The notes: generated by a model from the letters alone, not told the origin. Counted from the first letter of the stretch, positions 32,486 through 46,289 are shown. The stretch is 64,000 nt of DNA from an uncultured Acidobacteriaceae bacterium (GCA_964246225.1 CAXTQE010000002.1:7229-71228); one strand, 5' to 3'. Numbers and translations are program-made.

Positions 32486-33886
32486 CAATGCTGTTGAAAA
32501 ACTCTTGCTGCGCGAGAGTGGCTGTGTTTTCGTAAAAGCAGCAACGGAGAACATCGCCATGATGGGGCAGCACGATGCGCAGGAGCAGCTTTCTATTCTT
32601 TCCGACTTGAAGACCATGTTCCAAGTGATCATTTATTACGACGGCTTGATGCCGTTCTGAACTTCAAGCGAGTGAGAGTGGCGCTGGCAACCATTACAGT
32701 GCAACAGGCCGGCCATCGATCGATCCCGAGCTGATGTCACGTATGCTGTTGATCGGGTACGCGTACGGGATTCGCTCGGAACGCCAGCTGTGCAGCGAGG
32801 TACACCTCAACCTCACGTCTCGTTGGTTTTGCGGTTTGGGTCTTGACGGTGCCGTGGCGAACTACTCGACCTTCTCGAAGAACCGTTATGGCCGATTTAG
32901 AGAGAGCGACATCTACCGCGTGCTGTTTTAAGAAGTCGTCGGCCAGTGTTGCGTTGCGGGTTTGGTTACCAGTGAGGGCTTTGCTGTAGATGGCAGCCTA
33001 ATCCCGGTGATGCTGCACTCACCCGGCGTGTAGAAAGCGTGGACGCGATCCGCCAGGCAGACAACAGCAGCCGGCCGGTGCGCGAATATCTGGAGGCACT
33101 TGTTGCCGGTAATCCTGTTCATCTAAACGAAGCCCGGTATCTCTCACCGACGGATCCAGCCGCTGCATGGAACGTGAAGGAAGGACGAGGCAAGTTTGGC
33201 TACTTCAACAACTACCTTGTCAATACCGAACAGGCCATCATCGTTGACGTCGAGGCCACTCCCGCGCGGCTGTCACAGGAGATCGTTGCTATTCGAGCCA
33301 CGCTGGAGCGAGTAGACCAAAGACATGCCTTAAGGCCCCAGACGCTGGCAGCAGATAAGGCCGACGGCACAGGACCTTCCCTAGGCTGGCTCTCCGAGCG
33401 CAGCATCGTCCCGCACATTCCTCTACTGGACCGGCAGCATCAGACCGACGGTCTGCTGCCACGTAAAGTATTCACGTTCGATCCGGACAGGGATCATTAC
33501 ATCTGTCCCAAAAACAAGATCCTCAAGAACTCTCCGACTCCCGCTGACTCGCAGGTTAACCGCTATCACGCGAAGGAGACTGATTGCAGATCTTGTCCCA
33601 TCCGCCAACAATGCACCCGCGATAGATTTCGCTGCTTGTCCGTGTCTGTGGATGAGGATATTCGACAGAGAACTAAGGCCCTCCAAGACACAGATTCATT
33701 CCAACGATCGCGTCGTCTCCGCAGGAAAGAGGAAATGCTGTTCGCTCCCATGAAGCAGCACTTCGGCTCACAAGACTCAAGCCTCGAGGTTTAAGTGGCG
33801 CCTCTGAAGAGTTTTTATGGATGGCGACCTGTTAGAATTTACGCCGTCTTGCCCGGCTCTGCCGCCCTGGCATGCAAACAGCGTAG
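32486..33886 (+). mobile_element. IS1182-family element with a degraded transposase; right IR not found
   Basis: Left IR CAATGCTGTTGAAAAACTC. From ATG 32559: MMGQHDAQEQL.., GRPSIDPELM..GIRSERQLC, SPTDPAA, ADK and YICP. Several frameshifts and stops. Confidence 0.88.
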
Positions 33887-34049
33887 ATCTAAGCACTCAT
33901 TCGGATGGCGGCATCCCCGTCCAGGAGTTGCGAGACTACCCTGCTCTTACTGCAAATGGCCGACTTGCTCGATCATTGCTGCCTACGCCAAGCCACAGGC
34001 ACGCCCGGCCTTCGTAGCTCTAGCCAAGACGAGCGGCCAAGGAAAGGCT

Positions 34050-34957
34050 TCAGTACGCAGCGGTTGCTCGGAGCAGGTTTACATCACGGCGTGGCGAGAT
34101 GCCGAACATGCGTCCGTACTCGCGGCTGAACTGTGATGGACTCCCGTAACCGACCTGAAAGGCGGCGTTCTCGACGTTTGCTGCCTGCACCGTCAGGAGG
34201 CGGCGTGCTTCCGGAAGACGAAGCTGCTTCTGGTATGAAGAGGGGTAATCGAAGTGATGGCCCTGAACTGCCGGTGGAAGGCCGACGGGCTGAGTTGTGC
34301 ACTGGACGCCAAGGTGGCGATCCGAACTGGTTCTGCAAGTGATCGCTGAGAAAGTGGATGCTTCGGAGGATGCGATCGCTCGTGGTTGTTGGTCAGAGTC
34401 ACGCGGGTAACCTCCCTGCCGTGAGGGCCGGTAAGTAGCCAGTAGGAGATCTCACACATGATGGCTGGAAACAGAAACGGAATCGCGTCCAGCGTGTACA
34501 GCAGGCGTAAGAGACGGGCAGTGCAATCGGTCAGTTGACCATTAAAGTCGGTGACGAACACGCCAGAGCTGAGCTGATGGCTGGGCTCTGGCAGGCTGGG
34601 CAATTCGCCTGCAACGGAGCGCAGAATCGCCAGATCGAGTTCGAGAATGACACCAAGATACGGTTCTGTGGGCCTGGCTTCTGCAACGGTGCCGAAGCCA
34701 GGCATTTCAACGCTCACGAGCAGGGCTTGTCCAGCACTGTAGCGGTGGCACTGGTCGCCGAACGTCGCGGTTCGTTCCTTGCACGGTGATGCAGAGAGAA
34801 GGCTTGTACAGGAGATGATTAGCCCGGCGAGGCTGGCTGGAGTGCAAATAGTCAGGCCTTCGATGCAGGTGTAGAACGGATTTTGCCCAGACTGTGCATC
34901 GATGTAACGGGAGACAAGTTCCACCAAAGCCTTCTGCCACTCCGAATGTTCTCCCAA
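34050..34957 (-). pseudogene. AraC-family regulator (AraC_N/YqhC type), frameshifted
   Basis: LYKPSLCITVQG, EISYWLLTGPHG, SAFHRQFRAIT and VGYGSPSQFSREYGRMFG in shifting frames. Confidence 0.85.
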
Positions 34958-34978
34958 GCCTGCTTCTACTTCGCTATG

Positions 34979-35014
34979 CTAGACGGTAAAGCAGGACTAG
35001 ACAGTAAATCAGGA
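34979..35014. promoter_or_regulatory. 18-bp tandem direct repeat upstream of araC (probable AraC site)
   Basis: CTAGACGGTAAAGCAGGA CTAGACAGTAAATCAGGA, 16/18 identical. Confidence 0.5.
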
Positions 35015-35086
35015 GCTTTCGGTCTGTTGCTGGCTGCGCCGCGAACATACTCTTGAGGTGACAAGAATCACAAGGAGCAGGATAGT

Positions 35087-36253
35087 CCGCTTGCCGGCTA
35101 CCTGGTCGACCGCATTTCCAGGAAGGCGATCTTTCTGTTTGCGGTTGCCTTCTGGAGTGCAGCAACATTTTCCTGCGGACTGGCGCACACAAAATTCGCC
35201 ATGGGTCTAGGCCGAGGGGCCGTCGGGATCGGCGAGGCGCTGATGGTTCCGCTCGCCGTCTCCATCGTTAGTGATTCGCTTCCCGTGGAGCGGCGCTCGC
35301 GGGCCATGGCCCTCTTTTTTGCGGGTGGCCCCATCGGCAGTCTGGCTGTGCTGCTCTTCGGCGGTTTGCTGCTGAAACACCTTGGCCGCCATCCTGTCAG
35401 CATGCCTTTGGTTGGAGTGGTGCAGCCCTGGCAGACGCTGTTTCTGCTGCTTGCCGTTCCAGGAATCCTGCTTTGTACGCTTATTTTGTTCGTCATGAAA
35501 GACCCTGCTCGACCAAGCGCCAAGGCCGCACACAGGGATGGCTCCGCACAGCGCGGTGACATCCTGGCGTTCCTGCGCGGCCACCGTAGCCTTATCGCAG
35601 CGCTCTTTGCGGGCTATCCGCTGTTGCAGATGCCGGGCATCGCCGTCGCGGCGTGGGCGTTCCTTTATTTCGACAGAGTCTATGGAATGCCGCTGGAACG
35701 AGCCGCGGTCGCCTTTAGCGTTACGGCAGGCATCACCAGTATCTTTGGCTGTCTGCTAAGCGGCCGTTTCGTGCTGATGCTGCGAAAGCGCGGGTACGTG
35801 GACGCGTCTCTCCGTGCTTGTTTGCTCGGTGGGGTGTTCTTCGCAATCTTCGCTGTTTGCGGGCTGCTGGCACCCAGTCCTCGGACCGCTCTCCTGTTTT
35901 TCAGCGTTGCGTTCTTCTTCTCCTATGTACCCACGGTGGGAGCTTATAGTGCCATCAGTGAGATCGCTCCGCCCGCCATCCGTGCCAGCGTCGCGGGCCT
36001 TAACGCACTCACGTCCGGCGTTGTCGCCACGTCCTTAGGACCTTACCTGGTGGGCGTGTTTTCCGATTATCTCTTTCCAGGCGCACGGCTCGGCATTCGC
36101 TGGGCGCTGTTGACGACGATGGTGATCTCCGTGCTCTGCGGATTGGCTCTGGTCGCTCCGGGTCTCAGAGCTCTGCGCGACAGAATCAAGTGCATCAATG
36201 AAGCAGCGGAGGTCCAGTCGTCTACCGAAGAACCAACGTTGTCTCAATCTTAG
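35087..36253 (+). pseudogene. MFS transporter (spinster-like), N-terminus missing
   Basis: Begins abruptly at PLAGYLVDRISRK (MFS motif A), followed by GRGAVGIGEA and many TM segments. The first TMs are absent. Confidence 0.75.
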
Positions 36254-36281
36254 TCATTCAACGATGCAGGAGCAGCCGCCA

Positions 36282-37343
36282 CTACGTCAGTTCCAGAGGT
36301 GCCTTATCGTGATTTTTGAAGTAAGCATCCACGATCTGCGGGGTGACCTCTTCAAGCGTGGCCGGAGACCACTTCGGATTGCGGTCCTTGTCGACGATGG
36401 CAGCTCGAATGCCTTCCACCAGATCATGTCCCTTTTCGCAAGCCTGCGCGAGTTGGAACTCCTGAGTCAGCGATGTCGCCAAGTCGTCGGCAGCTCGTGC
36501 GTTTCGCAACGCGTGCAGGGTCACCGTCAGCGAGGTTGGTGACATCTTCGTCAGAACCTCCGCGCTCGCTCGTGCTTCGGCATCAGGATGCTCAAGCAGG
36601 GCTGCCATAATCTGCACAACGGCCGGTGCCGCAAAGCACTTATCGATCCAGGCACGCTGCTCGTCCGTCATTCCCTGTGGCGGCTGTGCCGTGTAGCTGC
36701 GCAAGCAGGTCTGCATCGCAGCCACGTCGGAGCAAGCTTCGAGATCGAGCGTCATGCGCGGCAGGTCCTCGCTATGAACCATTGTGTCCGCCAGGCCGCA
36801 CTGGATTGCGTCCGCCGCTCCGATACGGCTGCCCGTCAGGCCCATCCAGGTGCCGACTTCACCGGGCGCGGTGCCAAGCAGGTGTGTGCCCCCGACATCC
36901 GGGATGAAGCCAATGGCTGTCTCAGGCATAGCCAGTTGTGAGCGTTCTGTCACAATGCGATGCGATCCGTGACTCGAGATGCCGATGCCCCCGCCCATGA
37001 CGAGGCCGTCCATCAACACAACATACGGCTTTTGGTAACGCGAGATGTCGTAATTGAGCTGGTACTCCCTGCGGAAGAACTCCGTTGCCACCTCTGGCTG
37101 GCCGGCCACGATGGAGTTGTACAACGCGCGGATGTCGCCACCTGCGCAGAGTCCACGCTCGCCGGCACCATCGACGAGAACGAAGCCGACGCGGTCGTCG
37201 CTTGCCCATGCTGCGAGAGCCGCGTGCATTTCCTCGACCATGGTGATGCTCAAGGCATTGATAGCGCGTGGGCGATTCAACGTGATTCTGCCGCAAGCGC
37301 CGGTTACACGTATCAGGACATCGCTCATTGTTGCGTTCTCCAT
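36282..37343 (-). CDS. enoyl-CoA hydratase/isomerase family, 3-hydroxyisobutyryl-CoA hydrolase type
   Basis: CAGGDIR, MDGLVMGGGIG, AMPETAIGFIPDVG and EGIRAAIVDKDRNPKW. Confidence 0.88.
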   Translation of the reverse strand: MENATMSDVLIRVTGACGRITLNRPRAINALSITMVEEMHAALAAWASDDRVGFVLVDGAGERGLCAGGDIRALYNSIVAGQPEVATEFFRREYQLNYDISRYQKPYVVLMDGLVMGGGIGISSHGSHRIVTERSQLAMPETAIGFIPDVGGTHLLGTAPGEVGTWMGLTGSRIGAADAIQCGLADTMVHSEDLPRMTLDLEACSDVAAMQTCLRSYTAQPPQGMTDEQRAWIDKCFAAPAVVQIMAALLEHPDAEARASAEVLTKMSPTSLTVTLHALRNARAADDLATSLTQEFQLAQACEKGHDLVEGIRAAIVDKDRNPKWSPATLEEVTPQIVDAYFKNHDKAPLELT

Positions 37344-37366
37344 GCCGTAGGATTTTGGTAAGGCTA

Positions 37367-38497
37367 TCAGTCGAAGACCACAACCTGCCGAACGGCTTCA
37401 CCCCGCGCCAGCCGCTCGAATCCTTCGTTGAGGTCGTCCAGGCGCAAACGATGGGTAAGCAAGCGGTCGACTGGAAGCAGCCCGGCACGATAGAGCGCGA
37501 GGAAGCGCGGCAGGTCGCGCGATGGCACCGCCGATCCCATATACGATCCGCGAAGAACACGTTCTTCCGCAACCAGGCTCACCGCAGGAATGCTGAGCCG
37601 CTTATCAGGCGCGGGCAATCCCACGCTCACCGTAGTACCACCGCGCCGCGTAGCCGCGTAGGCCTGCGCGAGCACTCCTTCGTTCCCTACCGACTCGATG
37701 GCGTACTGCACCCCACCATGGGTTAGGTCGCGCAAAGTTTCTACGAGATCGGAAGACCTTGCATCGAGCGCGTGGTGTGCTCCCAACGCGAGCGCCATCG
37801 CCAGTCGATCCGGATTTGTGTCGATGGCGATGATCGGGTAGGCACCCGAGCAGCGTGCTCCAAGCATCGCGCTGAGACCGACGCCGCCCAGGCCGAAGAT
37901 GGCGATGCTCTCACCGGGCGCCACCTTGGCCGTGTTCACCACGGCGCCTACGCCCGTCAGCACCGCACACCCGAAGAGCGCCGCGATCTCAGGAGGGATT
38001 TCGACGTCAATCTTCACGACTGAGCATGCCGAGGCCACGACGTATTCCGCAAAGGCCGACACGCCGAGGTGGTGCCGCAGAAATTTGCTTTCACCGTCGG
38101 TCCAGCGACGTCCTCCGCCCAGCAACTCTCCGACGGTATTTGCAGCGGCACCGGGCTCGCATAGGGCTGGCCTGCCGGTAGCGCAAGGCCCGCAATGGCC
38201 ACAGATGGGCACAAATGTAAACACTACGTGATCGCCCACTGCAAGACCGTCCACCCCTTCGCCCAGTTCGACGATCTCACCGGCAGCTTCGTGTCCCAGC
38301 ACCATCGGCAATGGCCGAGGACGAGAGCCGTCGATGACCGACAAATCCGAGTGGCACAGACCTGCCGCAAGGATGCGCACCAGCAACTCCCCGCGGCCAG
38401 GCCGCTCGAGCGTTACTGTCTCGATTGCCAGCGGACGCGACTCCGTGTAAGGTCGCGTGATTCCGCTTTCCCGCAGCACTGCGGCTCGCACCTTCAT
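37367..38497 (-). CDS. zinc-dependent alcohol dehydrogenase
   Basis: GLCHSD, GHEAAG, CGHCGPC and GLGGVG. Confidence 0.92.
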   Translation of the reverse strand: MKVRAAVLRESGITRPYTESRPLAIETVTLERPGRGELLVRILAAGLCHSDLSVIDGSRPRPLPMVLGHEAAGEIVELGEGVDGLAVGDHVVFTFVPICGHCGPCATGRPALCEPGAAANTVGELLGGGRRWTDGESKFLRHHLGVSAFAEYVVASACSVVKIDVEIPPEIAALFGCAVLTGVGAVVNTAKVAPGESIAIFGLGGVGLSAMLGARCSGAYPIIAIDTNPDRLAMALALGAHHALDARSSDLVETLRDLTHGGVQYAIESVGNEGVLAQAYAATRRGGTTVSVGLPAPDKRLSIPAVSLVAEERVLRGSYMGSAVPSRDLPRFLALYRAGLLPVDRLLTHRLRLDDLNEGFERLARGEAVRQVVVFD

Positions 38498-38925
38498 GAT
38501 TGTTCCCCACGTTGAAGAGCCTCTAACGCATTGCGCAAAGCCGGTGTCAAGCTGGCGGAGAGGCGGCTTACGCGATCCACGAAGACGTGCACAAACCAGC
38601 CTTCTGCTGCCGCGAGGTCGCTGCCGGCTTGGAACAGACCGATGCCGTACCGCACGCTGCTTCTGCCCAGGTGTTCGACCCGAAGCCCCGCGTCGATCAC
38701 CTCAGGAAACGCGAGTGCCGCTACGAATTTGCAGTGAGATTCCGCACAGACACCGATCAAACCACCCACGTGAATATCAAGGCCGCCATGTTGAATCAGG
38801 TATAGATTGATGGCGGTATCGAAGTAGCCGTAGTACTCGATGTTATTGACGTGACCGTAGAGATCGTTATCTCGCCAGCGCGTCGCGATCGAAGTGAAGT
38901 GCAGATATTCGTCCCGCTTTGCCAT
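38494..38925 (-). CDS. acyl-CoA thioesterase (hotdog, 4HBT family)
   Basis: TRWRDNDLYGHVNN...YYGYFD, GLRVEHLGRSSVRY. Confidence 0.9.
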   Translation of the reverse strand: MAKRDEYLHFTSIATRWRDNDLYGHVNNIEYYGYFDTAINLYLIQHGGLDIHVGGLIGVCAESHCKFVAALAFPEVIDAGLRVEHLGRSSVRYGIGLFQAGSDLAAAEGWFVHVFVDRVSRLSASLTPALRNALEALQRGEQS

Positions 38926-38984
38926 GCGTATGTCCGTGTCTCCGCCAGGTCGCGCGTCGTTCCTGCATGGTAGGCTAGCACGCT

Positions 38985-40172
38985 ATGATCATTTGCCAGC
39001 CGGAGCGCACCCCTATTCCACGCGATAAAGACAAGGATTACACACGCGAAGCCGCGGCTCAGCGACGCGCCTTCGTTGAACAGCGGACTGGCTGCAAGCT
39101 GGATCACGTGGCGCAATACTCCTTTGCGACGGATGTCCTGCCGGGGAATATTGAAAACTTTACTGGCATAGCGCAGGTTCCTCTTGGGCTCGCAGGGCCG
39201 CTGCGCATTTCAGGGGAGCACGCGCGCGGCGACTTTTACATTCCCATGGCCACCACCGAAGGCACGCTGGTAGCGAGCTATAACCGAGGCATGCGCGTCC
39301 TCACGGAGTGCGGAGGTGTGAAGACCGCAGTCGTCAAGCAGAGCATGCAGCGCTCGCCGGTCTTTGAGGTCGGCGACGCGCTCGAAGCTCGCAAGTTGAG
39401 TGAGTGGGTCGACACTCATCTGCAGGAAATTCGTCAAGCCGCCGAAGCTACAACCTCCGTTGGCAAACTCGTGGAGATACGGTCCTACGTTATTGCGCGG
39501 CTGCTGTACCTTCGCTGCAATTACACGACTGCGGACGCGGCCGGGCAGAACATGGTCGGCAAGGCGACGCTGGCGGCGTGCCAATGGATCCATGCCAACC
39601 ACCCTGACAAGCCAAACTTCGTTCTTTCTGGAAATATTGATACCGACAAGAAGCATTCACAGATGAACACTCTCGAGACTCGCGGCCGGCGCGTTGTAGC
39701 GGAAGCGACTTTATCAAACGAAGTATTGAAGCGCGTCATGGGCGTAGATGCGGAGACACTGTTTCACATCCGTCAGATATCCCAGGCGGGTGCGTTCATG
39801 GCTGGCTCGTCGAATAACGGAGCTCACTCCGCCAACGGGCTGGCCGCCATGTTTATTGCGACGGGTCAGGATGTTGCCAACGTTGCCGAGTCGCAGGCAG
39901 CCATCGTCTATGCGCAACTTCTTGCGAGTGGTGAGTACTACTGGTCGATCACCCTTCCTTCGCTGATCGTCGCAACTTATGGCGGAGGTACGGGCCTGGC
40001 CACGCAGCGCGAATGCCTGGATATACTGGGCTGCTACGGCACAGGGCATGCCAACAAGTTGGCTGAGATTTGCGCAGCCACCGTGCTTGCTGGGGAGATT
40101 TCTCTGTCCAGCGCAATCGCGCGCGGGGACTGGGTTTCAAGCCATGATCGCCTTGGACGCAACCGACCCTGA
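38985..40172 (+). CDS. class I HMG-CoA reductase-like protein
   Basis: GNIENFTG, PMATTEGTLVAS, DAAGQNM, SGNIDTDKK, TGQDVANV, YGGGT, GEISL and C-terminal catalytic His. Confidence 0.9.
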   Translation: MIICQPERTPIPRDKDKDYTREAAAQRRAFVEQRTGCKLDHVAQYSFATDVLPGNIENFTGIAQVPLGLAGPLRISGEHARGDFYIPMATTEGTLVASYNRGMRVLTECGGVKTAVVKQSMQRSPVFEVGDALEARKLSEWVDTHLQEIRQAAEATTSVGKLVEIRSYVIARLLYLRCNYTTADAAGQNMVGKATLAACQWIHANHPDKPNFVLSGNIDTDKKHSQMNTLETRGRRVVAEATLSNEVLKRVMGVDAETLFHIRQISQAGAFMAGSSNNGAHSANGLAAMFIATGQDVANVAESQAAIVYAQLLASGEYYWSITLPSLIVATYGGGTGLATQRECLDILGCYGTGHANKLAEICAATVLAGEISLSSAIARGDWVSSHDRLGRNRP

Positions 40173-40255
40173 TCGCCTGTTCACCGGCTTGCAGGGCTCG
40201 TTGCAGACTTTGGTGGCAACCTGTTAGGATTTCCCGCGTTGAGTGGTTTTCAAGT

Positions 40256-41791
40256 TTGAACTTGAAAACGCCTCAAGCGATGAGCCTGCCCGCTAATGAC
40301 GGAACCGGGCTGTCTGAGGGAGACATCATGGCACTTCTAGAAGCGGAAAAGACATCGGCGGATACGTCCATTGCAGAAGATGCGGAAGCGATCCTCGCCA
40401 TGCAGACCGCCTTCCAAGCGCAACGTCGCGCTTTCGCCGCGGATCGCATGCCCACGCTTGCCGTGCGCCGCGAACGGCTGGAGCGCATCATCACCATGAT
40501 GAAAGCGTACAAGGATCGCATCTATACGGCACTGAGCGCGGACTTCGGCGCGCACTCCACCGGTGCCGCGGATATGTTTGAGGTGCAGCCTGTTATCTTG
40601 CGGGCGCAGTTTGCGCTGGCGCACCTGGAAGAGTGGATGCAGCCCACGGCCCGTGAGGTCGACGCAGCCTACCAGGGTGCCATGCGTGCCTTCCTCAAGA
40701 GCCAGCCGAAAGGTGTCGTCGGCAATATTTCACCGTGGAACTTTCCGTTCGAAATCGGTATAGGACCAATGGTGGACATAATTGCCGCAGGTAATCGCTT
40801 CATGCTGAAACCTTCCGACATCGCACCTTCAAGCGCCGCGCTCATGCAACAGATGGTGGCTGAATATTTTGCGGAAGATCTCGCCTATGTTGCGGTTGGT
40901 GGCCTGGAGCTTGCGCGTGCGTTTACCAATCTTCCGTTCGACCACTTGCTGTACACGGGCAGCTCGAATGTTGGCAAGCAGATTATGGCGGCCGCCGCGA
41001 AGAACCTGACTCCAGTCACGCTGGAGCTTGGCGGTAAGTGTCCGGCTGTATTTCTACCGGGTAGTGTGATTGCTGACGTGGTCAATATGGTCGTTGGCGT
41101 CAAGAGCATCAAGAATGGCCAGATGTGCGTTTCGGTCGATCACTGCTTCGTGCCTCGCGCAGAGCTCGACAACTTTGCCCGCATCGCCTCCGAATTTATG
41201 GCCGCCGCAATGCCCGGGTACGCTCGCTCGGCGGCATGCACGGGCATTGTCTCGGACCGGCACCTCGAGCGCATTACCGCAATGCTGGACGAAGCAGAGC
41301 AGCGCAACGTGCGTCTTGTGACGCTCGAAACCGATGGCAAAGTCGATCGCAAGAGCCGTCAGGTGCCGCTCACACTTGTTCTTGACCCGCCCATGGACCT
41401 GCGCATGATGCAGGAAGAAATCTTTGGTCCCATACTGCCGGTCGTCCCGTATGACAACATCGACGAGGTGATCGAGTGCATCAACGCCAAGGACCATCCA
41501 CTCGGCGTCTACGTCATGGGCACAGATGTTCCTGTCATCGAGCGCGTACTTGGTGAAACCGTTTCAGGCGGCGTAGCAGTCAACGCTGCTGCCGTTCAAG
41601 CTGGGTTGAAAGCCCTGGGTTTCGGAGGAATCGGGATGAGCGGCATGGGCCGCCATCACGGCATCGATGGTTTTCGCGAGTTCTCCAACCAGCGCGGCTT
41701 CGTTGTACGCGGCGAGGGCCCTCACTTTGACGCCTTCGTTTCGCCGACCCAGAACGCTGCGGAACTTGTCGGCCAGGTGCCTGCCGGGTAA
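40256..41791 (+). CDS. aldehyde dehydrogenase, ALDH3/coniferyl-aldehyde dehydrogenase type
   Basis: PWNFP, LKPSD, YTGS, ELGGKCP, GQMCV, EEIFGP and SGMGRHHG. Confidence 0.88.
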   Translation: MNLKTPQAMSLPANDGTGLSEGDIMALLEAEKTSADTSIAEDAEAILAMQTAFQAQRRAFAADRMPTLAVRRERLERIITMMKAYKDRIYTALSADFGAHSTGAADMFEVQPVILRAQFALAHLEEWMQPTAREVDAAYQGAMRAFLKSQPKGVVGNISPWNFPFEIGIGPMVDIIAAGNRFMLKPSDIAPSSAALMQQMVAEYFAEDLAYVAVGGLELARAFTNLPFDHLLYTGSSNVGKQIMAAAAKNLTPVTLELGGKCPAVFLPGSVIADVVNMVVGVKSIKNGQMCVSVDHCFVPRAELDNFARIASEFMAAAMPGYARSAACTGIVSDRHLERITAMLDEAEQRNVRLVTLETDGKVDRKSRQVPLTLVLDPPMDLRMMQEEIFGPILPVVPYDNIDEVIECINAKDHPLGVYVMGTDVPVIERVLGETVSGGVAVNAAAVQAGLKALGFGGIGMSGMGRHHGIDGFREFSNQRGFVVRGEGPHFDAFVSPTQNAAELVGQVPAG

Positions 41792-41801
41792 TGTGCAGAG
41801 A

Positions 41802-41836
41802 GCGCTGGCAAGCGGAGTTATTCCGCCTGCCAGCGC
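41802..41836. terminator. GC-rich hairpin between convergent genes
   Basis: GCGCTGGCAAGCGGA / TCCGCCTGCCAGCGC with one mismatch. No U-tract. Confidence 0.55.
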
Positions 41837-41849
41837 CCTTAGGCATGAA

Positions 41850-42620
41850 TCAGCGGCCTGCGAGCCGACCTAGAACTTCGGTGCGAAAACCTGCCAGCCT
41901 CCCCCCATCGACTACGATGGTCTGCCCCGTAATGTACCGGCTCTGATCGCTGACGAGAAAGTGATACACACCCACGAGGTCATCAATTTCAGCGATTCGC
42001 CCAAGCGACGAGAGGTTTTTCGCTAAATCGTTGAGGATGTGAGTCGGTGGCAGCATGGGGGTTTTTACGGGACCAGGCGCTACCGCGTTGCAGCGAATGC
42101 CTCGCCTACCCAGCTCTACTGCGGCCGTCTTCGCTAGACTGATTGTCGCGGCCTTGGTTGCGCTGTAGTCGAAGAAGCCTTCGTTCTGTTGCAAGCCGGC
42201 CACCGACGCGGTCAGTGTGATCGATCCGCCATCGTGCATGTGGCCCGGCCCATACTTCAGGATGTAGTACGTTCCGTACAGGTTCAGATTCACAACACCG
42301 TCGAACACATCCTCGTCGGAGTCGGTGATGTGCTTTCCGTTTCCGGGCTTGCCGGCATTGTGAATGATGGCGTTGAGTTTTCCAACAGCTGTTTCCGCGT
42401 AAGCGAGGCCTTCGATCACCTGCTCCCGAACTGTGACGTCGAGGTGCAAATACTTCCCTCCTGCAGTAAGGACCGACTCTGGCGGTGGATTGAGGTCTGC
42501 AATCACGACGCGCGCGCCCTCCTGCAGGCAGCGCTCAGCAGTTCCCAATCCGATGCCGGAAGCACCACCGGTGACAAAGATCGACTTTTCTCGAAGGCTG
42601 AAGGGTGCTGACGTTTCCAC
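41850..42620 (-). CDS. classical SDR oxidoreductase
   Basis: TGGASGIG, HNAG, YSATK and ITGQTIVVDGG. Confidence 0.92.
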   Translation of the reverse strand: METSAPFSLREKSIFVTGGASGIGLGTAERCLQEGARVVIADLNPPPESVLTAGGKYLHLDVTVREQVIEGLAYAETAVGKLNAIIHNAGKPGNGKHITDSDEDVFDGVVNLNLYGTYYILKYGPGHMHDGGSITLTASVAGLQQNEGFFDYSATKAATISLAKTAAVELGRRGIRCNAVAPGPVKTPMLPPTHILNDLAKNLSSLGRIAEIDDLVGVYHFLVSDQSRYITGQTIVVDGGRLAGFRTEVLGRLAGR

Positions 42621-42667
42621 GGTATCTCTCCTTAGGCTGCATGCGGTGAAGGTCGTCTCTGCCGGCG

Positions 42668-44377
42668 TTAGTAGTTTGGCAGACCGGCAAACGCGGTGAC
42701 GGGCGGCATCGCGTTGGGGTCAGCGATGATGTCGAGCAGAACGGTGCCTTCGGCTGCCAGCGCCTGCTGAATGGCGCCAGCAATGTCCTCTGCACGCTCC
42801 ACACGGATGCCCTTCACTCCGCAGGCCTCAGCGATTGCGGCATGGTCGACTGAAACGAAATCGCATACATTCGTATGCCGTCCAAGCCCCGCGTCTTCAG
42901 CATGCTTTTGATAACCCAGGACGCTGTTGTTCATCACCGCTATCACGACCTTGATGCCGTGGCGTCGCGTCGTCTCCAGCTCTGACCAGACATGGCCAAA
43001 TCCGCCATCGCCCACAACGCAAACGACCGGTTGGTCGGGGCTGCCCAGCCGCGCTCCCATGGCCAGCGGGAAACCCCAGCCGAGCCCGGCCTGTCCGCGC
43101 GGCGTGATGAAGCGGCGATCCAACTTCGCTGTGAGATAGTTCGCCACCCAGATAGATGAGAAGCTCGCGTCCGCAACGATCATGTGATTGGCGGAAAGCT
43201 GTTTTTCAAGCTCCGCCATAAAGCGCTCCGGACGAATCGGTGACGCCTCCGATTGCGTGACATCCGCAATCTCTTCCTTATGCTTCGTGCGCGCGCCGGT
43301 GATGAACTCTTCGATGCCGGCACGAGCAGCCTGCCGCCCGGTCAGATCCTGCTTCGCCAAGGCTGCGTTGAGAGCCGCCAGAGTCAGCTTGGCATCGCCC
43401 TGCAACCGGAAGGCTTCATAGTTGCGGCCGATCTCCAAAGGGTCTACATCGATGTGGATATAGGTCGCTTCCTTCGGCAGCAGCTTCCAGGAATCGGTCC
43501 CATTTTGATTGGTACGATTGCCGATGAGCAGGATGACATCCGCCTCGGTGACCATGGGCTTCATGAACTTCGCCATGCCACGCGTTGCCATGTAATAGCC
43601 GATCACGCCCATCGACAACGGATGCGTTTCATCGACGCCGCCCTTGCCCATGGTGCTTGTGGCCACCGGCAGATGGGCAAGCTCCTGCAGTTGCCGCAGC
43701 TCGTGCTGCGCGCGAGACCCAATGACGCCGCCACCGGCATAGACGATCGGAGCCTTGGCCTTGGCCAGCATCTCCGCTGCCTGCTCCACCCTGCTCTGCT
43801 CGGGCTGGCTGCGGTCGAGTGGATATGTGCCTAGATTCGCCCTCCGAGCCGCTACAGGGCGCTCTTCGCCCTGAACCAGCAACTCCATTGAAACCAGCAG
43901 GACCGCGGGTCCGGGACGTCCGCTGGCAGCCGCTGTAAATGCCATGTCGACATAGTCTTCGATGCGGTCAGCGGTGGTTACCCGGCGTATCCACTTGGCC
44001 ACGCCCTTGAACAGGTCGAACTGGTCCAGCTCCTGAAAAGCGTTCCGATCCTGGGTTCCGGGGCCGACATCCTGCACAAGCGCTACGATAGGCACGGATG
44101 CGGAGAGGCACTCCGCCAGGCCCGGTACAAGCAGCGTCGCCGCAGGCCCGTTTTGCGCCGTGACCACCGGCACCTTTCCGCTAGCGCGTGCATAGCCGTC
44201 TGCCATATAGGTGCCGGCGTTTTCCTGGCGATAGCCAATCTGCAAGATACCCAGGTCGCTTGCGGCGAGCGTGATGCCGGGCGGGTTGCTCTGCCCAAAC
44301 AGGAACTCGACTCCATGCCGTTTGAGCGCATGGGCGAACCGTTGCGGGGGACGCATCATCAAGAGCGTTTCGCTCAT
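42668..44377 (-). CDS. ThDP-dependent acetolactate-synthase-like enzyme
   Basis: YRQENAG, AQNGPAATLL, FQELDQ and GDGGFGH...NN. No small subunit adjacent. Confidence 0.85.
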   Translation of the reverse strand: MSETLLMMRPPQRFAHALKRHGVEFLFGQSNPPGITLAASDLGILQIGYRQENAGTYMADGYARASGKVPVVTAQNGPAATLLVPGLAECLSASVPIVALVQDVGPGTQDRNAFQELDQFDLFKGVAKWIRRVTTADRIEDYVDMAFTAAASGRPGPAVLLVSMELLVQGEERPVAARRANLGTYPLDRSQPEQSRVEQAAEMLAKAKAPIVYAGGGVIGSRAQHELRQLQELAHLPVATSTMGKGGVDETHPLSMGVIGYYMATRGMAKFMKPMVTEADVILLIGNRTNQNGTDSWKLLPKEATYIHIDVDPLEIGRNYEAFRLQGDAKLTLAALNAALAKQDLTGRQAARAGIEEFITGARTKHKEEIADVTQSEASPIRPERFMAELEKQLSANHMIVADASFSSIWVANYLTAKLDRRFITPRGQAGLGWGFPLAMGARLGSPDQPVVCVVGDGGFGHVWSELETTRRHGIKVVIAVMNNSVLGYQKHAEDAGLGRHTNVCDFVSVDHAAIAEACGVKGIRVERAEDIAGAIQQALAAEGTVLLDIIADPNAMPPVTAFAGLPNY

Positions 44378-44443
44378 TTTTTACCTTCCCTTCCCAACCA
44401 TTGCAGAATCAACCCGGCCTGTGCCGGCTTACGGGGAGCGTAT

Positions 44444-45463
44444 TTACGGCTTGATCAACACCTTGCAGTGGTCATTGGGCTTACTGAGTAGCGTGAACAT
44501 TGCAGCCGCATCGTCCAGGGTTACGGTGTCGGTGATCAGCTTGTCGACTGTAATCCTTCGTGAGGTCATCATGCGCTGCGCAAAGTGAAAATCGGCGGGC
44601 ACGTATGCGAATGGAAACGTCATGCGCAGACGCTTCATCGCCGCCGAGACCACCGTGAAGTTCTCCGGTTGCATGCCCGTTCCAACCAGCACAAGCTGGG
44701 TGTGCGAAGGCGCCATCGCAATCATCTTGTCAATCATTGGGCGTCCGACGCATTCAAAGATTGCCACGGGCTTGCGTCCGGTCCTGCGTTCAAACTCTTC
44801 TACTGGATTTGCGTGCTGCGTTGCGTCGATCACAAGATCGAAGCCCACACTTTCCGCACGAGCCCGGCGCGCCGGCACCATCTCGCTGATGGCTACATCA
44901 CCGGCGCCAAAGAACTGCGCCCACTTCGCCACAGCCAGGCCGATGACCCCGGCGCCAAGGATGAGAATGCTTGCTCCCGGGTCGAGTTTTGCCGCTTTCC
45001 ATGCGTTCAAGCCAACTGCCATCGGCTCGATCGTGGCGGCCTCATCATCCGAGAGAACAGCGGAGATTTTGACGGCGAGCCCGGCCATGCAAGTCGCGTA
45101 CTCGGCAAAGGCACCCGGCATTCTAGGGTCGAAGCCCTGCGCGATGATTGCGCTGCACTGCGCGTACTGGCCGGCTCTGCACTCCGGGCACGCGCCGCAC
45201 GGACGCGCGGGAACAGCCGTCAGGCGATCGCCGACTTGCCAGCCTTCGCATCCGGGGCCGACCTCAACCACTTCCCCCGAGTACTCATGGCCAAGCGTGC
45301 TTCCCGAATGCAGCAGCCCTGGAACTTCGACAGCGTGAAGGTCCGATCCGCATATGCCGCAAGCCTTCACCCTGAATACAAGCCCACCGGGCGAAGCACT
45401 CGGCTTTGCGACTTCTGCCAGTTCCAACGGCTTTCCGATTCCGACAAACTGCAGCGTCTTCAT
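44444..45463 (-). CDS. zinc-binding dehydrogenase (MDR)
   Basis: GICGSD, GHEYSG, CGACPEC and GAGVIG. Start MKTLQ follows an AAGGGAG RBS. Confidence 0.88.
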   Translation of the reverse strand: MKTLQFVGIGKPLELAEVAKPSASPGGLVFRVKACGICGSDLHAVEVPGLLHSGSTLGHEYSGEVVEVGPGCEGWQVGDRLTAVPARPCGACPECRAGQYAQCSAIIAQGFDPRMPGAFAEYATCMAGLAVKISAVLSDDEAATIEPMAVGLNAWKAAKLDPGASILILGAGVIGLAVAKWAQFFGAGDVAISEMVPARRARAESVGFDLVIDATQHANPVEEFERRTGRKPVAIFECVGRPMIDKMIAMAPSHTQLVLVGTGMQPENFTVVSAAMKRLRMTFPFAYVPADFHFAQRMMTSRRITVDKLITDTVTLDDAAAMFTLLSKPNDHCKVLIKP

Positions 45464-45520
45464 CCCAGTTCTCCCTTGTACTGCTCTTTCCTGCGTTCCC
45501 ACTACTTACGCGTTCGTACT

Positions 45521-46168
45521 TCAATCTAAGCGCCTATTTACGATCAAGCCTTTCGAACTACGATCAAGCCCTTCGAAACCGAACACCATCATTGCCGCCA
45601 TGAGGCGATCTACCGTCAGGCCACTAACGGACGGCACCCATTTGCCCAGCCAGATCAGCATGCCAAGCAGCAGTTCGACAACCAGCTCCGGTTCACACTG
45701 CACCAGCGAATGATCTGCCGTGCCTTCCTGAAGAAAGCCGATCATGATGGCTTTCAAGCGATCGATCCAACTCTTGATAGCTTTGCGCTGCGCTGTATCG
45801 AGGTACGAGTAGTCGCCGAGATAGAGAAGCGCGCCATTTTCTCGCGAGTCGACGAGCATGCCATGGATAAAGATACGCAGCTTTTCGCTACCCGTGCTGC
45901 CCTCTTTGTCCGCGGCTTCGAGCAGGCGCTGGGCGCGTTCGAGGGATTTGCGGTGACAGGCATAGGCAAGCGTCCGTTTGTCATGGAAGTAGTGGTACAG
46001 CGTAGCGTCGCGCAGTTCCAAGGCTGCTGCGATATCGATCATGGTGGCCTGTGCATAGCTTCTGGCGTTGATGGTCTCGGTGGCGGCGCGCATGATTTCG
46101 GCGCGCCGCTTGTCGGATTTGCGGCTTTTTGACACGGTTTTCTGAACTTTTAGCTTCTTCGTTGCCAT
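45521..46168 (-). CDS. TetR-family regulator
   Basis: RRAEIMRAATETINARSYAQATMIDIAAALELRDATLYHYFHDK. Divergent from the TBDR. Confidence 0.9.
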   Translation of the reverse strand: MATKKLKVQKTVSKSRKSDKRRAEIMRAATETINARSYAQATMIDIAAALELRDATLYHYFHDKRTLAYACHRKSLERAQRLLEAADKEGSTGSEKLRIFIHGMLVDSRENGALLYLGDYSYLDTAQRKAIKSWIDRLKAIMIGFLQEGTADHSLVQCEPELVVELLLGMLIWLGKWVPSVSGLTVDRLMAAMMVFGFEGLDRSSKGLIVNRRLD

Positions 46169-46212
46169 AAACGATGAAAGGGCCTCAAAGCCGGTGTCTG
46201 GTGCAGCAAGCA

Positions 46213-46256
46213 TTCTGACATATCTAGTACACGTTAGAAAAACTAGTCTTGACTAG
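46213..46256. promoter_or_regulatory. candidate TetR operator
   Basis: Perfect palindrome CTAGTC-TT-GACTAG (46243-46256) and imperfect TTCTGAC...GTTAGAA (46213-46239) in the tetR/TBDR divergent region. Confidence 0.5.
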
Positions 46257-46289
46257 AGTGTTGATGCTGGACTAAATTCACGTCCGTCA

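What the first reader, a model, noticed from the sequence alone, without database searches (positions are those of the whole stretch)
38494..41791. Orphan class I HMG-CoA reductase in a catabolic context
Seen: all class I motifs are present but two are variant (DAAGQNM for DAMGMNM, SGNIDTDKK for SGNxCxDKK). The gene is divergent from thioesterase-ADH-hydrolase and followed by an ALDH. No HMG-CoA synthase, HMG-CoA lyase or mevalonate kinase lies in the window. Known: mevalonate catabolism in Pseudomonas mevalonii uses a class II enzyme with a lyase. Inference: the enzyme may be a repurposed acyl-CoA/alcohol oxidoreductase acting on a different substrate.
Basis: partly seen in the sequence, partly recalled or inferred. 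Interest (0 to 1): 0.6.

Follow-up and report, generated by a model that had tools for sequence, protein, structure and literature searches.

The report
FcrA-type acyl-CoA reductase, not HMGR

Summary
A 395-aa class I HMGR homologue (38985-40172, +) carries DAAGQNM and SGNIDTDKK. It is divergent from a thioesterase-ADH-hydrolase operon and followed by a class-3 ALDH. The genome has DXS and IspH, but no mevalonate kinase, HMG-CoA synthase or decarboxylase was found.

The window protein keeps the catalytic Glu/Lys/Asp/His. It has Trp for Leu862 and Ser for Lys735. It groups with relatives bearing the FcrA N-terminal (Lad) domain, apart from canonical HMGR. It is 58% identical, without gaps, to one such Chloroflexota protein. 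Relatives at 60-83% identity often lie next to WS/DGAT (16/78 loci within 3 kb) or an acyl-CoA synthetase (25/78 within the fetched flanks).

New here:
- Ser684 is kept and Asp688 supplies the acidic residue (70 of 79 relatives; the other 9 have Glu684).
- The window's Acidobacteriaceae lineage was found in 7 genomes. None has a detectable WS/DGAT, and 6 share the TE, ADH, ALDH, SDR, ThDP-enzyme and ADH2 neighbours. The other lineage has WS/DGAT in 8 of 8 genomes, directly downstream in 7.

The scan found FcrA before on other DNA. It is a new member of a known kind. Its physiological role is open.

The parts
38985..40172 (+). fcrA-like gene: a class I HMGR homologue of 395 aa, read as a fatty acyl-CoA reductase (alcohol-forming)
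   Evidence: PF00368 at 417.8 bits but below the TIGR00533 cut-off. Catalytic E92/K222/D296/H387 are kept. W383 stands for Leu862 and S266 for Lys735; S215 and D219 stand for Ser684 and Cys688. It falls in the W862 clade together with relatives bearing the Lad domain.
40256..41791 (+). Class-3-type aldehyde dehydrogenase, 83 bp downstream on the same strand (likely co-transcribed)
   Evidence: PF00171 at 248.5 bits. The best solved relatives are steroid aldehyde DH 9nxl, benzaldehyde DH 5ucd and human fatty aldehyde DH 4qgk. The gene is syntenic in L010 and G048.
38494..38925 (-). Hotdog-fold (4HBT / YbgC-FadM-like) acyl-CoA thioesterase, divergent from fcrA across a 59-bp spacer
   Evidence: PF13279 and PF03061. 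PDB 2av9/2o5u thioesterase at 158.6 bits. Conserved with fcrA in L010-L014 and G048.
37367..38497 (-). Zn-dependent medium-chain alcohol dehydrogenase (class I/III-like); its start overlaps the thioesterase stop by 4 bp
   Evidence: ADH_N plus ADH_zinc_N. The best PDB hits are liver and class III ADHs at about 250 bits. Found at 70-80% identity in L010-L014, L016 and G048.
36282..37343 (-). ECH_2 / 3-hydroxyisobutyryl-CoA hydrolase-like protein, last gene of the TE-ADH operon; not a conserved member of the cluster
   Evidence: PF16113 at 413 bits; NF004127 at 438 bits, over its cut-off. Found only in L010, and partly in G048.
41850..42620 (-). Short-chain dehydrogenase/reductase, last gene of the TetR-ADH2-ThDP-SDR operon, convergent with the ALDH
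   Evidence: adh_short_C2 at 180.6 bits. Found at 74-89% identity in L010, L012-L016 and G048.
42668..44377 (-). Thiamine-diphosphate enzyme of the acetolactate-synthase-like PRK06112 subfamily; substrate unknown
   Evidence: Three TPP_enzyme domains. NF004772 at 860.9 bits, over its cut-off. The best PDB relatives are plant AHAS, BbmA and glyoxylate carboligase.
44444..45502 (-). Second Zn-dependent dehydrogenase (polyol/threonine-DH-like)
   Evidence: ADH_N plus ADH_zinc_N. Found at 75-85% identity in L010, L012-L014, L016 and G048.
45521..46213 (-). TetR-family regulator, first gene of the minus-strand operon
   Evidence: TetR_N plus TetR_C_24. Found at 74-76% identity in L010 and G048.

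Best explanation
The gene encodes an FcrA-type enzyme. FcrA is a descendant of class I HMG-CoA reductase that keeps the HMGR chemistry: two successive hydride transfers to a CoA thioester, through a bound thiohemiacetal/aldehyde, with Glu, Lys, Asp and His as catalytic residues. Its HMG pocket has been rebuilt for an uncharged acyl chain. The most likely reaction is long-chain acyl-CoA + 2 NADPH -> primary fatty alcohol + CoA + 2 NADP+.

Shown here: membership of the FcrA clade, the pocket substitutions, that no mevalonate pathway was found, and the gene neighbourhoods.

Inferred: substrate chain length, cofactor and direction, all taken from the assayed Pb-FcrA of the published family.

In this Acidobacteriaceae lineage the gene is probably co-transcribed with a class-3 (fatty/hydrophobic) aldehyde dehydrogenase. 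It faces a thioesterase-alcohol dehydrogenase operon and lies beside a TetR-controlled ADH-ThDP enzyme-SDR operon. No wax-ester synthase was detected in the genomes of this lineage. The alcohol is therefore probably not destined for wax esters. It more likely enters a TetR-regulated pool of one lipid skeleton that is interconverted between acyl-CoA, alcohol, aldehyde and acid. The end product of that pool is unknown.
For: - Published family. Grossi et al. 2025 (PMC11948995) showed that purified Pb-FcrA reduces C14 and longer acyl-CoA with NADPH, does not reduce HMG-CoA, and is not inhibited by simvastatin. They named the diagnostic substitutions.
- Diagnostic residues. The window protein has E92/K222/D296/H387, W383 for Leu862 and S266 for Lys735. 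Its spacing matches the N. pharaonis FcrA numbers printed in the paper with a constant offset of 145 at six of the seven residues (144 at the Glu). W862 occurs in 79/79 close relatives.
- Phylogeny. In a tree of 130 representatives at the 50% identity level, 10 canonical HMGRs (M655/M657/S684/C688/L862) split off with support 100. The window protein lies in a W862 clade (support 98) with proteins carrying PF25653, the N-terminal 'Lad' domain. It is 58% identical without gaps to a Lad-type Chloroflexota protein.
- Curated threshold. It scores below the TIGR00533 equivalog cut-off.
- Pathway context. MEP genes are present, and no mevalonate kinase, HMG-CoA synthase or decarboxylase was found in G000 (82% complete). 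Mevalonate kinase and HMG-CoA synthase were also not found in the single-contig relative G048, which carries the same cluster.
- Neighbourhoods. Among 78 loci from several phyla, an acyl-CoA synthetase lies within the fetched flanks in 25 and WS/DGAT within 3 kb in 16 (18 within the flanks). An Enterobacter kobei protein fuses an AMP-binding domain to this domain. In 7 of 8 Acidobacteriaceae genomes of the other lineage, WS/DGAT directly follows fcrA.
- No shift in this lineage. No lineage-specific substitution occurs at otherwise conserved columns, so there is no sign of a change in chemistry.
Against: - No enzyme of this lineage has been assayed, and the characterised Pb-FcrA sequence could not be fetched as a named anchor.
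- Ser684 is not replaced by Glu as it is in N. pharaonis FcrA.
- No WS/DGAT was found in any of the 7 genomes of this lineage, so the published physiological role does not apply.
- A reductase making alcohol next to an ADH and an ALDH that would oxidise it looks futile, unless the enzymes act at different times or the pathway runs the other way.
- The ALDH's closest solved relatives include steroid and benzaldehyde dehydrogenases, so the acyl group need not be a straight-chain fatty acid.
- The paper itself models 12 of 59 putative FcrAs with pockets too small for C14.
Confidence: 0.65

Rival explanations
1. It is an FcrA-clade enzyme that works physiologically in the oxidative direction. It would convert a long-chain primary alcohol + CoA + 2 NAD(P)+ directly to acyl-CoA, sparing the ATP cost of acyl-CoA synthetase, as class II HMGR does with mevalonate in Pseudomonas mevalonii. 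It would act beside a parallel ADH/ALDH route for growth on alcohols.
For: The context looks catabolic: Zn-ADH, class-3 ALDH, thioesterase and a TetR regulator. No WS/DGAT sink for an alcohol product was found in 7/7 genomes of the lineage. No acyl-CoA synthetase is in the cluster, although one lies within the fetched flanks in 25/78 loci elsewhere.
Against: The assayed family member is NADPH-dependent and reductive. The NADP-site motif DAAGQNM is identical to that of WS/DGAT-linked relatives, and there are no lineage-specific changes at conserved columns. Ser at the Arg627 position also occurs in the Lad-type Chloroflexota protein, so it is not evidence for NAD+ use.
Confidence: 0.15
2. It has the same four-electron acyl-CoA reductase chemistry but acts on a non-fatty acyl-CoA, for example an aromatic, isoprenoid, steroid-side-chain or short hydroxyacyl-CoA. 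The neighbouring ADH, ALDH, thioesterase, ThDP enzyme and SDR would act on that same skeleton.
For: The ALDH's best solved relatives are steroid aldehyde and benzaldehyde dehydrogenases. The thioesterase is of the 4-hydroxybenzoyl-CoA thioesterase fold. The window also holds a 3-hydroxyisobutyryl-CoA hydrolase-like gene. Grossi et al. model some putative FcrAs with small pockets.
Against: The lineage is nested among WS/DGAT- and acyl-CoA-synthetase-linked relatives at 60-75% identity, with no distinguishing substitutions at conserved columns. Human fatty aldehyde DH is an almost equally good ALDH match. The hydrolase gene is not conserved in the cluster.
Confidence: 0.15
3. It is a genuine HMG-CoA reductase, either an orphan or part of a mevalonate pathway hidden in the unassembled 18% of the genome.
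For: There is a full-length PF00368 match with all four catalytic residues. The genome is only 82% complete.
Against: Lys735 is lost and Leu862 is Trp. The protein is below the TIGR00533 cut-off and lies outside the canonical clade. The single-contig relative G048 has the same cluster and no mevalonate kinase or HMG-CoA synthase. The assayed family member does not reduce HMG-CoA.
Confidence: 0.03

Closest known systems
FcrA, the class I HMGR-derived fatty acyl-CoA reductase (Pb-FcrA of 'Ca. Promineifilum breve', assayed; N. pharaonis FcrA, modelled); Grossi et al. 2025, ISME J, PMC11948995
   Same: It shares the catalytic tetrad, Trp at the Leu862 position, a small residue at the Lys735 position and the DA(A/S)GQNM motif. 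It belongs to the same clade, apart from canonical HMGR. The host genomes have no detectable mevalonate pathway, and relatives lie next to WS/DGAT and acyl-CoA synthetase.
   Different: It has no N-terminal Lad (PF25653) or ACP domain. Ser684 is kept and the acidic residue sits at position 688 (SGNIDTDKK) instead of Glu684. In this lineage no WS/DGAT was found in the genomes, and the neighbours are ADH, ALDH, thioesterase, a ThDP enzyme and an SDR.
Canonical class I HMG-CoA reductase (human 1DQ8/1DQ9; Methanothermococcus thermolithotrophicus 6HR7)
   Same: It has the same fold family (303.8 bits to 6hr7), the same catalytic Glu/Lys/Asp/His, the cis-loop DKK, the GQD motif and the C-terminal helix carrying His.
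   Different: DAMGMNM reads DAAGQNM, Cys688 is Asp, Lys735 is lost and Leu862 is Trp. It scores below the NCBIfam equivalog cut-off, and no mevalonate pathway partners were found.
SDR-type bacterial fatty acyl-CoA reductases (Marinobacter FarA/Maqu_2220, AcrB/Maqu_2507, Acinetobacter Acr1)
   Same: The predicted overall reaction is the same (acyl-CoA to fatty alcohol), as is the usual association with WS/DGAT. This is taken from the paper and from general knowledge.
   Different: The fold is unrelated (Rossmann SDR versus HMGR). According to the paper, FcrA does not reduce free fatty aldehyde whereas FarA and AcrB do.
Class II degradative HMG-CoA reductase of Pseudomonas mevalonii (TIGR00532)
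   Same: It is a precedent for an HMGR-type enzyme working in a catabolic, oxidative direction.
   Different: The match is only 37.7 bits against a cut-off of 259.95. It belongs to a different class, uses a different substrate and is paired with HMG-CoA lyase.

Membership tests
FcrA (HMGR-derived fatty acyl-CoA reductase, Grossi et al. 2025) | HMGR catalytic residues Glu559, Lys691, Asp767 and His866 are conserved | tested here: met
   E92, K222, D296 and H387 are present, and each is invariant in 79/79 close relatives.
FcrA (HMGR-derived fatty acyl-CoA reductase, Grossi et al. 2025) | Leu862 is replaced by a bulky residue (Trp528 in N. pharaonis) | tested here: met
   W383 lies in GDWVSSH. 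Trp occurs in 79/79 close relatives, and F/W/Y in 115 of the 120 non-canonical representatives, whereas all 10 canonical ones have Leu.
FcrA (HMGR-derived fatty acyl-CoA reductase, Grossi et al. 2025) | The HMG-carboxylate partner Lys735 (printed 'Lys795' in the paper) is replaced by a small residue (Gly411 in N. pharaonis) | tested here: met
   S266 is the equivalent by the HMMER alignment and by the constant offset of 145 to the N. pharaonis numbering. The family has S/A/G in 71 of 79 sequences. MAFFT shifts the column by one residue, but neither I265 nor S266 is Lys.
FcrA (HMGR-derived fatty acyl-CoA reductase, Grossi et al. 2025) | Ser684 is replaced by an acidic residue (Glu360 in N. pharaonis) | tested here: not met
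   S215 is kept. An acidic residue sits four positions on, at D219 (the Cys688 position). Among 79 close relatives, 70 have S/T684 with D688 and 9 have E684 with A688, so all 79 have one acidic residue in the cis-loop. The paper gives Glu684 for N. pharaonis. Whether Asp688 does the same job has not been tested.
FcrA (HMGR-derived fatty acyl-CoA reductase, Grossi et al. 2025) | Membership of the monophyletic clade separate from characterised archaeal and eukaryotic class I HMGR | tested here: met
   In a FastTree of 130 representatives, the canonical group splits off with support 100. The window protein lies in a W862 clade (support 98) with PF25653/Lad-bearing proteins. Caveat: the rows are unnamed, and Pb-FcrA itself could not be fetched as an anchor.
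FcrA (HMGR-derived fatty acyl-CoA reductase, Grossi et al. 2025) | The host genome lacks the mevalonate pathway | tested here: met
   No mevalonate kinase, HMG-CoA synthase or decarboxylase reaches its cut-off in G000 (82% complete), while DXS and IspH are present. Mevalonate kinase and HMG-CoA synthase were also not found in the single-contig relative G048.
FcrA (HMGR-derived fatty acyl-CoA reductase, Grossi et al. 2025) | Reduces long-chain acyl-CoA to alcohol with NADPH, does not reduce HMG-CoA, and is statin-insensitive | not testable with these tools
   This needs an enzyme assay. The activity is known only for Pb-FcrA.
FcrA (HMGR-derived fatty acyl-CoA reductase, Grossi et al. 2025) | Association with WS/DGAT (frequent, but according to the paper not universal) | tested here: not met
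   No PF03007 match was found in G000, G048 or G102-G106. The search works as a positive control in G101 and in 27 Acidobacteriaceae genomes. Relatives in other lineages are adjacent to WS/DGAT. The paper states that fcrA often occurs without WS/DGAT.
HMG-CoA reductase (NADPH), class I, TIGR00533 equivalog | Score at or above the curated equivalog cut-off | tested here: not met
   355.5 bits against a cut-off of 441.8.
HMG-CoA reductase (NADPH), class I, TIGR00533 equivalog | HMG-binding pocket residues Ser684, Lys735 and Leu862, and the DAMGMNM motif | tested here: not met
   Only Ser684 is retained. Lys735 is Ser, Leu862 is Trp, and Met655/Met657 are Ala/Gln. The pocket residue list comes from PMC7503714.

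The most novel reading that the evidence does not exclude
In this WS/DGAT-less Acidobacteriaceae lineage, the conserved supercluster (FcrA-ALDH, TE-ADH, TetR-ADH2-ThDP enzyme-SDR) may be a pathway that turns acyl-CoA into a lipid other than a wax ester. One route would run acyl-CoA -> alcohol (FcrA) -> aldehyde (ADH) -> ThDP-dependent carboligation to a long-chain acyloin -> reduction to a vicinal diol by the SDR and ADH2. Another would supply fatty alcohols for the ether-linked membrane lipids known from Acidobacteria.
Probability: 0.1. Interest if true: 0.65.

Novelty: new member of a known kind. Interest (0 to 1): 0.3.

Why it matters
Databases still label these genes 'hydroxymethylglutaryl-CoA reductase (NADPH)'. 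That label wrongly suggests mevalonate metabolism in bacteria that use the MEP pathway. Placing the gene in FcrA corrects the annotation.

The finding also adds two small points to the 2025 description. First, the acidic residue of the cis-loop can sit at position 688 instead of 684. Second, soil Acidobacteriaceae carry two FcrA lineages. One is always paired with a wax-ester synthase. The other is embedded in an alcohol/aldehyde/thioester cluster in genomes where no such synthase was found.

The second lineage is a concrete case for asking what else FcrA-made fatty alcohols are used for. That question touches on storage and membrane lipid biology in a dominant soil phylum.

Tried and rejected
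- Window neighbourhood as a conserved feature. I expected the ADH/TE/ALDH/SDR/ThDP neighbourhood to be conserved with the gene across phyla. It is not. It is confined to Acidobacteriaceae loci L010-L016 and G048.
- ORF calling. A first longest-ORF clustering of the neighbours picked antisense ORFs in GC-rich loci. I redid it with a GC3-based choice.
- Cofactor switch. Arg627 is Ser in this lineage, which I considered as evidence for NADH use. I dropped the idea because the Lad-type Chloroflexota relative also has Ser there, and the assayed Lad-type enzyme uses NADPH.
- Named anchor. Pb-FcrA (CUS01882.1) and the N. pharaonis FcrA could not be retrieved. A second homologue search and two cluster look-ups returned only unnamed or MAG proteins, the nearest being an Ardenticatenaceae/Chloroflexota cluster.
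- Lineage-specific substitutions that might indicate a new specificity: none found.
- Promoter and terminator scan of 36000-46500: no more matches than in shuffled sequence.
- Literature on the ThDP enzyme's nearest solved relatives (BbmA, CsmA): nothing useful.
- Istvan et al. 2000 is not held in the library, so a review was used for the residue lists. The supplement of the FcrA paper held no text on Acidobacteria.
- Structure prediction was not run. The acyl pocket lies at a subunit interface, and a monomer model would only restate the HMGR fold.

Full report
**Observation.** The window holds an intact 395-aa ORF at 38985-40172 (+). It matches Pfam HMG-CoA_red end to end at 417.8 bits. Against NCBI's equivalog model for NADPH-dependent HMG-CoA reductase it scores 355.5 bits, below the cut-off of 441.8. 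DAAGQNM stands for DAMGMNM, and SGNIDTDKK stands for SGNxCxDKK.

**Local gene layout.**
- The gene is divergent, across 59 bp, from a hotdog thioesterase (38494-38925, -).
- The thioesterase stop overlaps the start of a Zn-alcohol dehydrogenase (37367-38497, -) by 4 bp.
- A 3-hydroxyisobutyryl-CoA hydrolase-like gene follows (36282-37343, -).
- An aldehyde dehydrogenase (40256-41791, +) lies 83 bp downstream of the reductase.
- Convergent with that ALDH is a minus-strand operon: TetR (45521-46213), a second Zn-dehydrogenase (44444-45502), a thiamine-diphosphate enzyme (42668-44377) and an SDR (41850-42620).

**Pathway context.** The window lies in a 4.07-Mb assembly of 291 contigs, estimated 82% complete.
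- The assembly has one PF00368 gene only.
- DXS (742 bits) and IspH (329 bits) of the MEP pathway are present.
- Nothing reaches the cut-offs for mevalonate kinase, HMG-CoA synthase or diphosphomevalonate decarboxylase.
- The best HMG-CoA lyase match is below its cut-off and lies on another contig.
- Because the assembly is incomplete, I repeated two of these searches in G048. This is a single-contig, 97%-complete Acidobacteriaceae genome that carries the same gene cluster at 75-85% protein identity. It too has no mevalonate kinase or HMG-CoA synthase over the cut-offs.

**What the gene is.** The protein has a very large set of close relatives, all annotated 'hydroxymethylglutaryl-CoA reductase' where a source names them. 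A scan of species-representative genomes returned at least 591 loci. The best 80 span Acidobacteriota, Alpha-, Beta- and Gammaproteobacteria, Actinomycetota, Myxococcota, Thermodesulfobacteriota and Eremiobacterota, at 60-83% identity.

I clustered the neighbouring genes of 78 of these loci. The recurrent partners are:
- an AMP-binding acyl-CoA synthetase, within the fetched flanks in 25 loci;
- an SDR, in 22 loci;
- a WS/DGAT wax-ester synthase, in 18 loci (16 of them within 3 kb of the gene), usually directly adjacent.

That pattern suggested an alcohol-forming acyl-CoA reductase. A literature search then found exactly this. Grossi et al. 2025 (PMC11948995) describe FcrA, a class I HMGR homologue. 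According to the paper:
- The purified enzyme from 'Ca. Promineifilum breve' reduces C14 and longer acyl-CoA to fatty alcohol with NADPH.
- It does not reduce HMG-CoA or free aldehyde, and it is not inhibited by simvastatin.
- The family forms a clade separate from characterised HMGRs and is widespread in bacteria that lack the mevalonate pathway.
- It is often, but not always, accompanied by WS/DGAT.

**Membership test.** The paper gives residue-level criteria.
- Catalytic Glu559/Lys691/Asp767/His866 are kept. Here they are E92, K222, D296 and H387, and each is invariant in 79 close relatives.
- Leu862 becomes bulky. Here it is W383, with Trp in 79/79.
- Lys735, the salt-bridge partner of the HMG carboxylate, becomes small. 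The paper prints 'Lys795', but a review lists Lys735 among the HMG-pocket residues. Here it is S266, with S/A/G in 71 of 79. MAFFT shifts this column by one residue, but neither I265 nor S266 is Lys.
- At six of the seven residues named in the paper, the window protein's numbers differ from the N. pharaonis FcrA numbers by a constant 145 (144 at the Glu). The two proteins therefore align across this region with at most a one-residue indel.
- One criterion is not met: Ser684 is Glu in N. pharaonis FcrA but stays Ser (S215) here.

Seventy of 79 relatives combine Ser/Thr684 with Asp688, and the other nine combine Glu684 with Ala688. All 79 therefore carry exactly one acidic residue in the cis-loop, whereas canonical enzymes have Ser684/Cys688 in 10 of 10. 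The DAAGQNM variant (A655/Q657) is likewise universal in the close family and common across the non-canonical clade.

**Phylogeny.** A search of 1.84 billion representatives gave 4078 hits. I built a tree from 130 full-domain sequences: 124 of the best 150 representatives, the window protein and five close relatives.
- Ten canonical HMGRs separate from the 120 others with support 100.
- The window protein sits in a Trp862 clade (support 98).
- That clade includes 508-520-aa proteins carrying Pfam PF25653, the N-terminal domain the paper calls Lad.
- The window protein is 58% identical, without a single gap over 384 residues, to a Lad-type protein of Chloroflexota/Ardenticatenaceae.
- The same clade contains a 902-aa Enterobacter kobei protein in which an AMP-binding acyl-CoA synthetase is fused to this domain. 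Such a fusion links acyl activation to the reduction step.

I could not retrieve the assayed Pb-FcrA sequence itself, so the anchor is indirect.

**What is particular here.** Within Acidobacteriaceae the gene is patchy. It occurs in 9 of 100 other genus representatives, and a 99%-complete genome of the same genus lacks it. Two lineages exist.

| Lineage | Identity to the window protein | Genomes | WS/DGAT found | Position |
|---|---|---|---|---|
| Wax-synthase-linked | 60-67% | 8 | 8 of 8 | directly downstream on the same strand in 7 |
| Window's lineage | 73-100% | 7 | 0 of 7 | not applicable |

The second row covers the window's own assembly, the complete genome G048 and the five genomes behind L010-L014. 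The same WS/DGAT search finds the family in 27 other Acidobacteriaceae genomes and in a control genome. Completeness is not known for five of the seven.

The window's lineage is monophyletic (support 99). Six of the seven genomes share a syntenic or rearranged set of genes: thioesterase, Zn-ADH, ALDH, SDR, ThDP enzyme and second ADH. A TetR homologue was detected only in L010 and G048. L011 keeps only the thioesterase and the Zn-ADH. L015 and L016, whose genomes were not searched for WS/DGAT, carry partial sets.

The ALDH is of class 3. Its best solved relatives are a steroid aldehyde dehydrogenase, a benzaldehyde dehydrogenase and human fatty aldehyde dehydrogenase. The ADH resembles liver and class III ADHs. 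No position that is conserved in the rest of the close family is changed specifically in this lineage, so nothing points to new chemistry in the reductase itself.

**Mechanism proposed.**
- Shown: family membership, the pocket changes, that no mevalonate pathway or wax synthase was found, and the cluster conservation.
- Inferred from the assayed family member: NADPH-dependent four-electron reduction of a long-chain acyl-CoA to the primary alcohol through an enzyme-bound thiohemiacetal/aldehyde. His387 would protonate the leaving CoA thiolate, and Lys222/Glu92/Asp296 would polarise the carbonyl, as in HMGR.
- Inferred from context: the alcohol, aldehyde, acid and CoA ester of one hydrophobic skeleton are interconverted by FcrA, the ADH, the ALDH and the thioesterase under TetR control, and the product is not a WS/DGAT wax ester.

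The rivals are an oxidative, CoA-acylating role in alcohol catabolism, and a non-fatty acyl-CoA substrate. Neither is excluded. A true HMGR is very unlikely.

**Novelty.** The enzyme type was published in 2025, and this scan has already recognised it on other DNA, including another soil acidobacterium. I reached the same reading independently from the neighbourhood analysis before consulting those notes. The residual new points are modest: the Asp688-for-Glu684 alternative, and a wax-synthase-less Acidobacteriaceae lineage with its own conserved partner genes.

Noticed in passing
P0135 (902 aa) and its cluster members P0292-P0305, Enterobacter kobei: An AMP-binding acyl-CoA synthetase is fused N-terminally to an FcrA-type domain with the same A655/Q657, S684/D688 and W862 residues as the window protein. 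NCBI annotates it only as 'AMP-binding protein'. It is a natural fusion of acyl activation and reduction in an enterobacterium.
   Followed up: partly
L020, L021, L024, L028, L041, L044, L067 (Gammaproteobacteria, including Steroidobacteraceae): A recurrent same-strand arrangement: a LEA_2 protein, a PF13759 2OG-Fe(II) oxygenase-like protein, fcrA and, in three of the seven loci, an acyl-CoA synthetase. This is another non-wax context for the family, and the scan has noted it before on other DNA.
   Followed up: partly
L030, L031, L034, L036, L037, L043, L053 (Burkholderiales / Caldimonas): Operon-like arrays made of an alpha/beta hydrolase, fcrA, an SDR, WS/DGAT and an acyl-CoA synthetase. 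Most loci carry several of these genes. Together they would make a complete wax-ester module with an extra SDR directly after fcrA.
   Followed up: no
window 33039-36253: A DDE transposase fragment (33039-33794), an AraC-family regulator (34193-34957, -) and an MFS transporter ORF (35201-36253). The MFS ORF matches its profile only from position 90 onward, so it appears N-terminally truncated. This may be the scar of an insertion at the edge of the cluster.
   Followed up: no
window 46290-49862: A 1190-aa outer-membrane protein (CarboxypepD_reg domain plus OMP beta-barrel) lies divergent from the TetR gene. This is an architecture typical of TonB-dependent receptors. Whether it belongs to the cluster is unknown.
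   Followed up: no
window 42668-44377 (-), with L010, L012-L016 and L090: An acetolactate-synthase-like ThDP enzyme (NF004772 at 860.9 bits) is always accompanied by an SDR and, in all but L015, by a polyol-DH-like Zn-dehydrogenase. The set stays linked to fcrA even where the gene order is rearranged. Its substrate is unknown.
   Followed up: partly
PMC11948995, section 'Structural comparison': The paper prints 'Lys795' for the HMG salt-bridge lysine. A review of human HMGR residues (PMC7503714) lists Lys735, which indicates that Lys735 is meant.
   Followed up: yes
G000:C25:18752-19534: An HMG-CoA lyase-like ORF scores 183.8 bits, below the 246-bit cut-off of NF004283. It may be a divergent lyase of leucine catabolism and is unrelated to the focal gene by position.
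   Followed up: no
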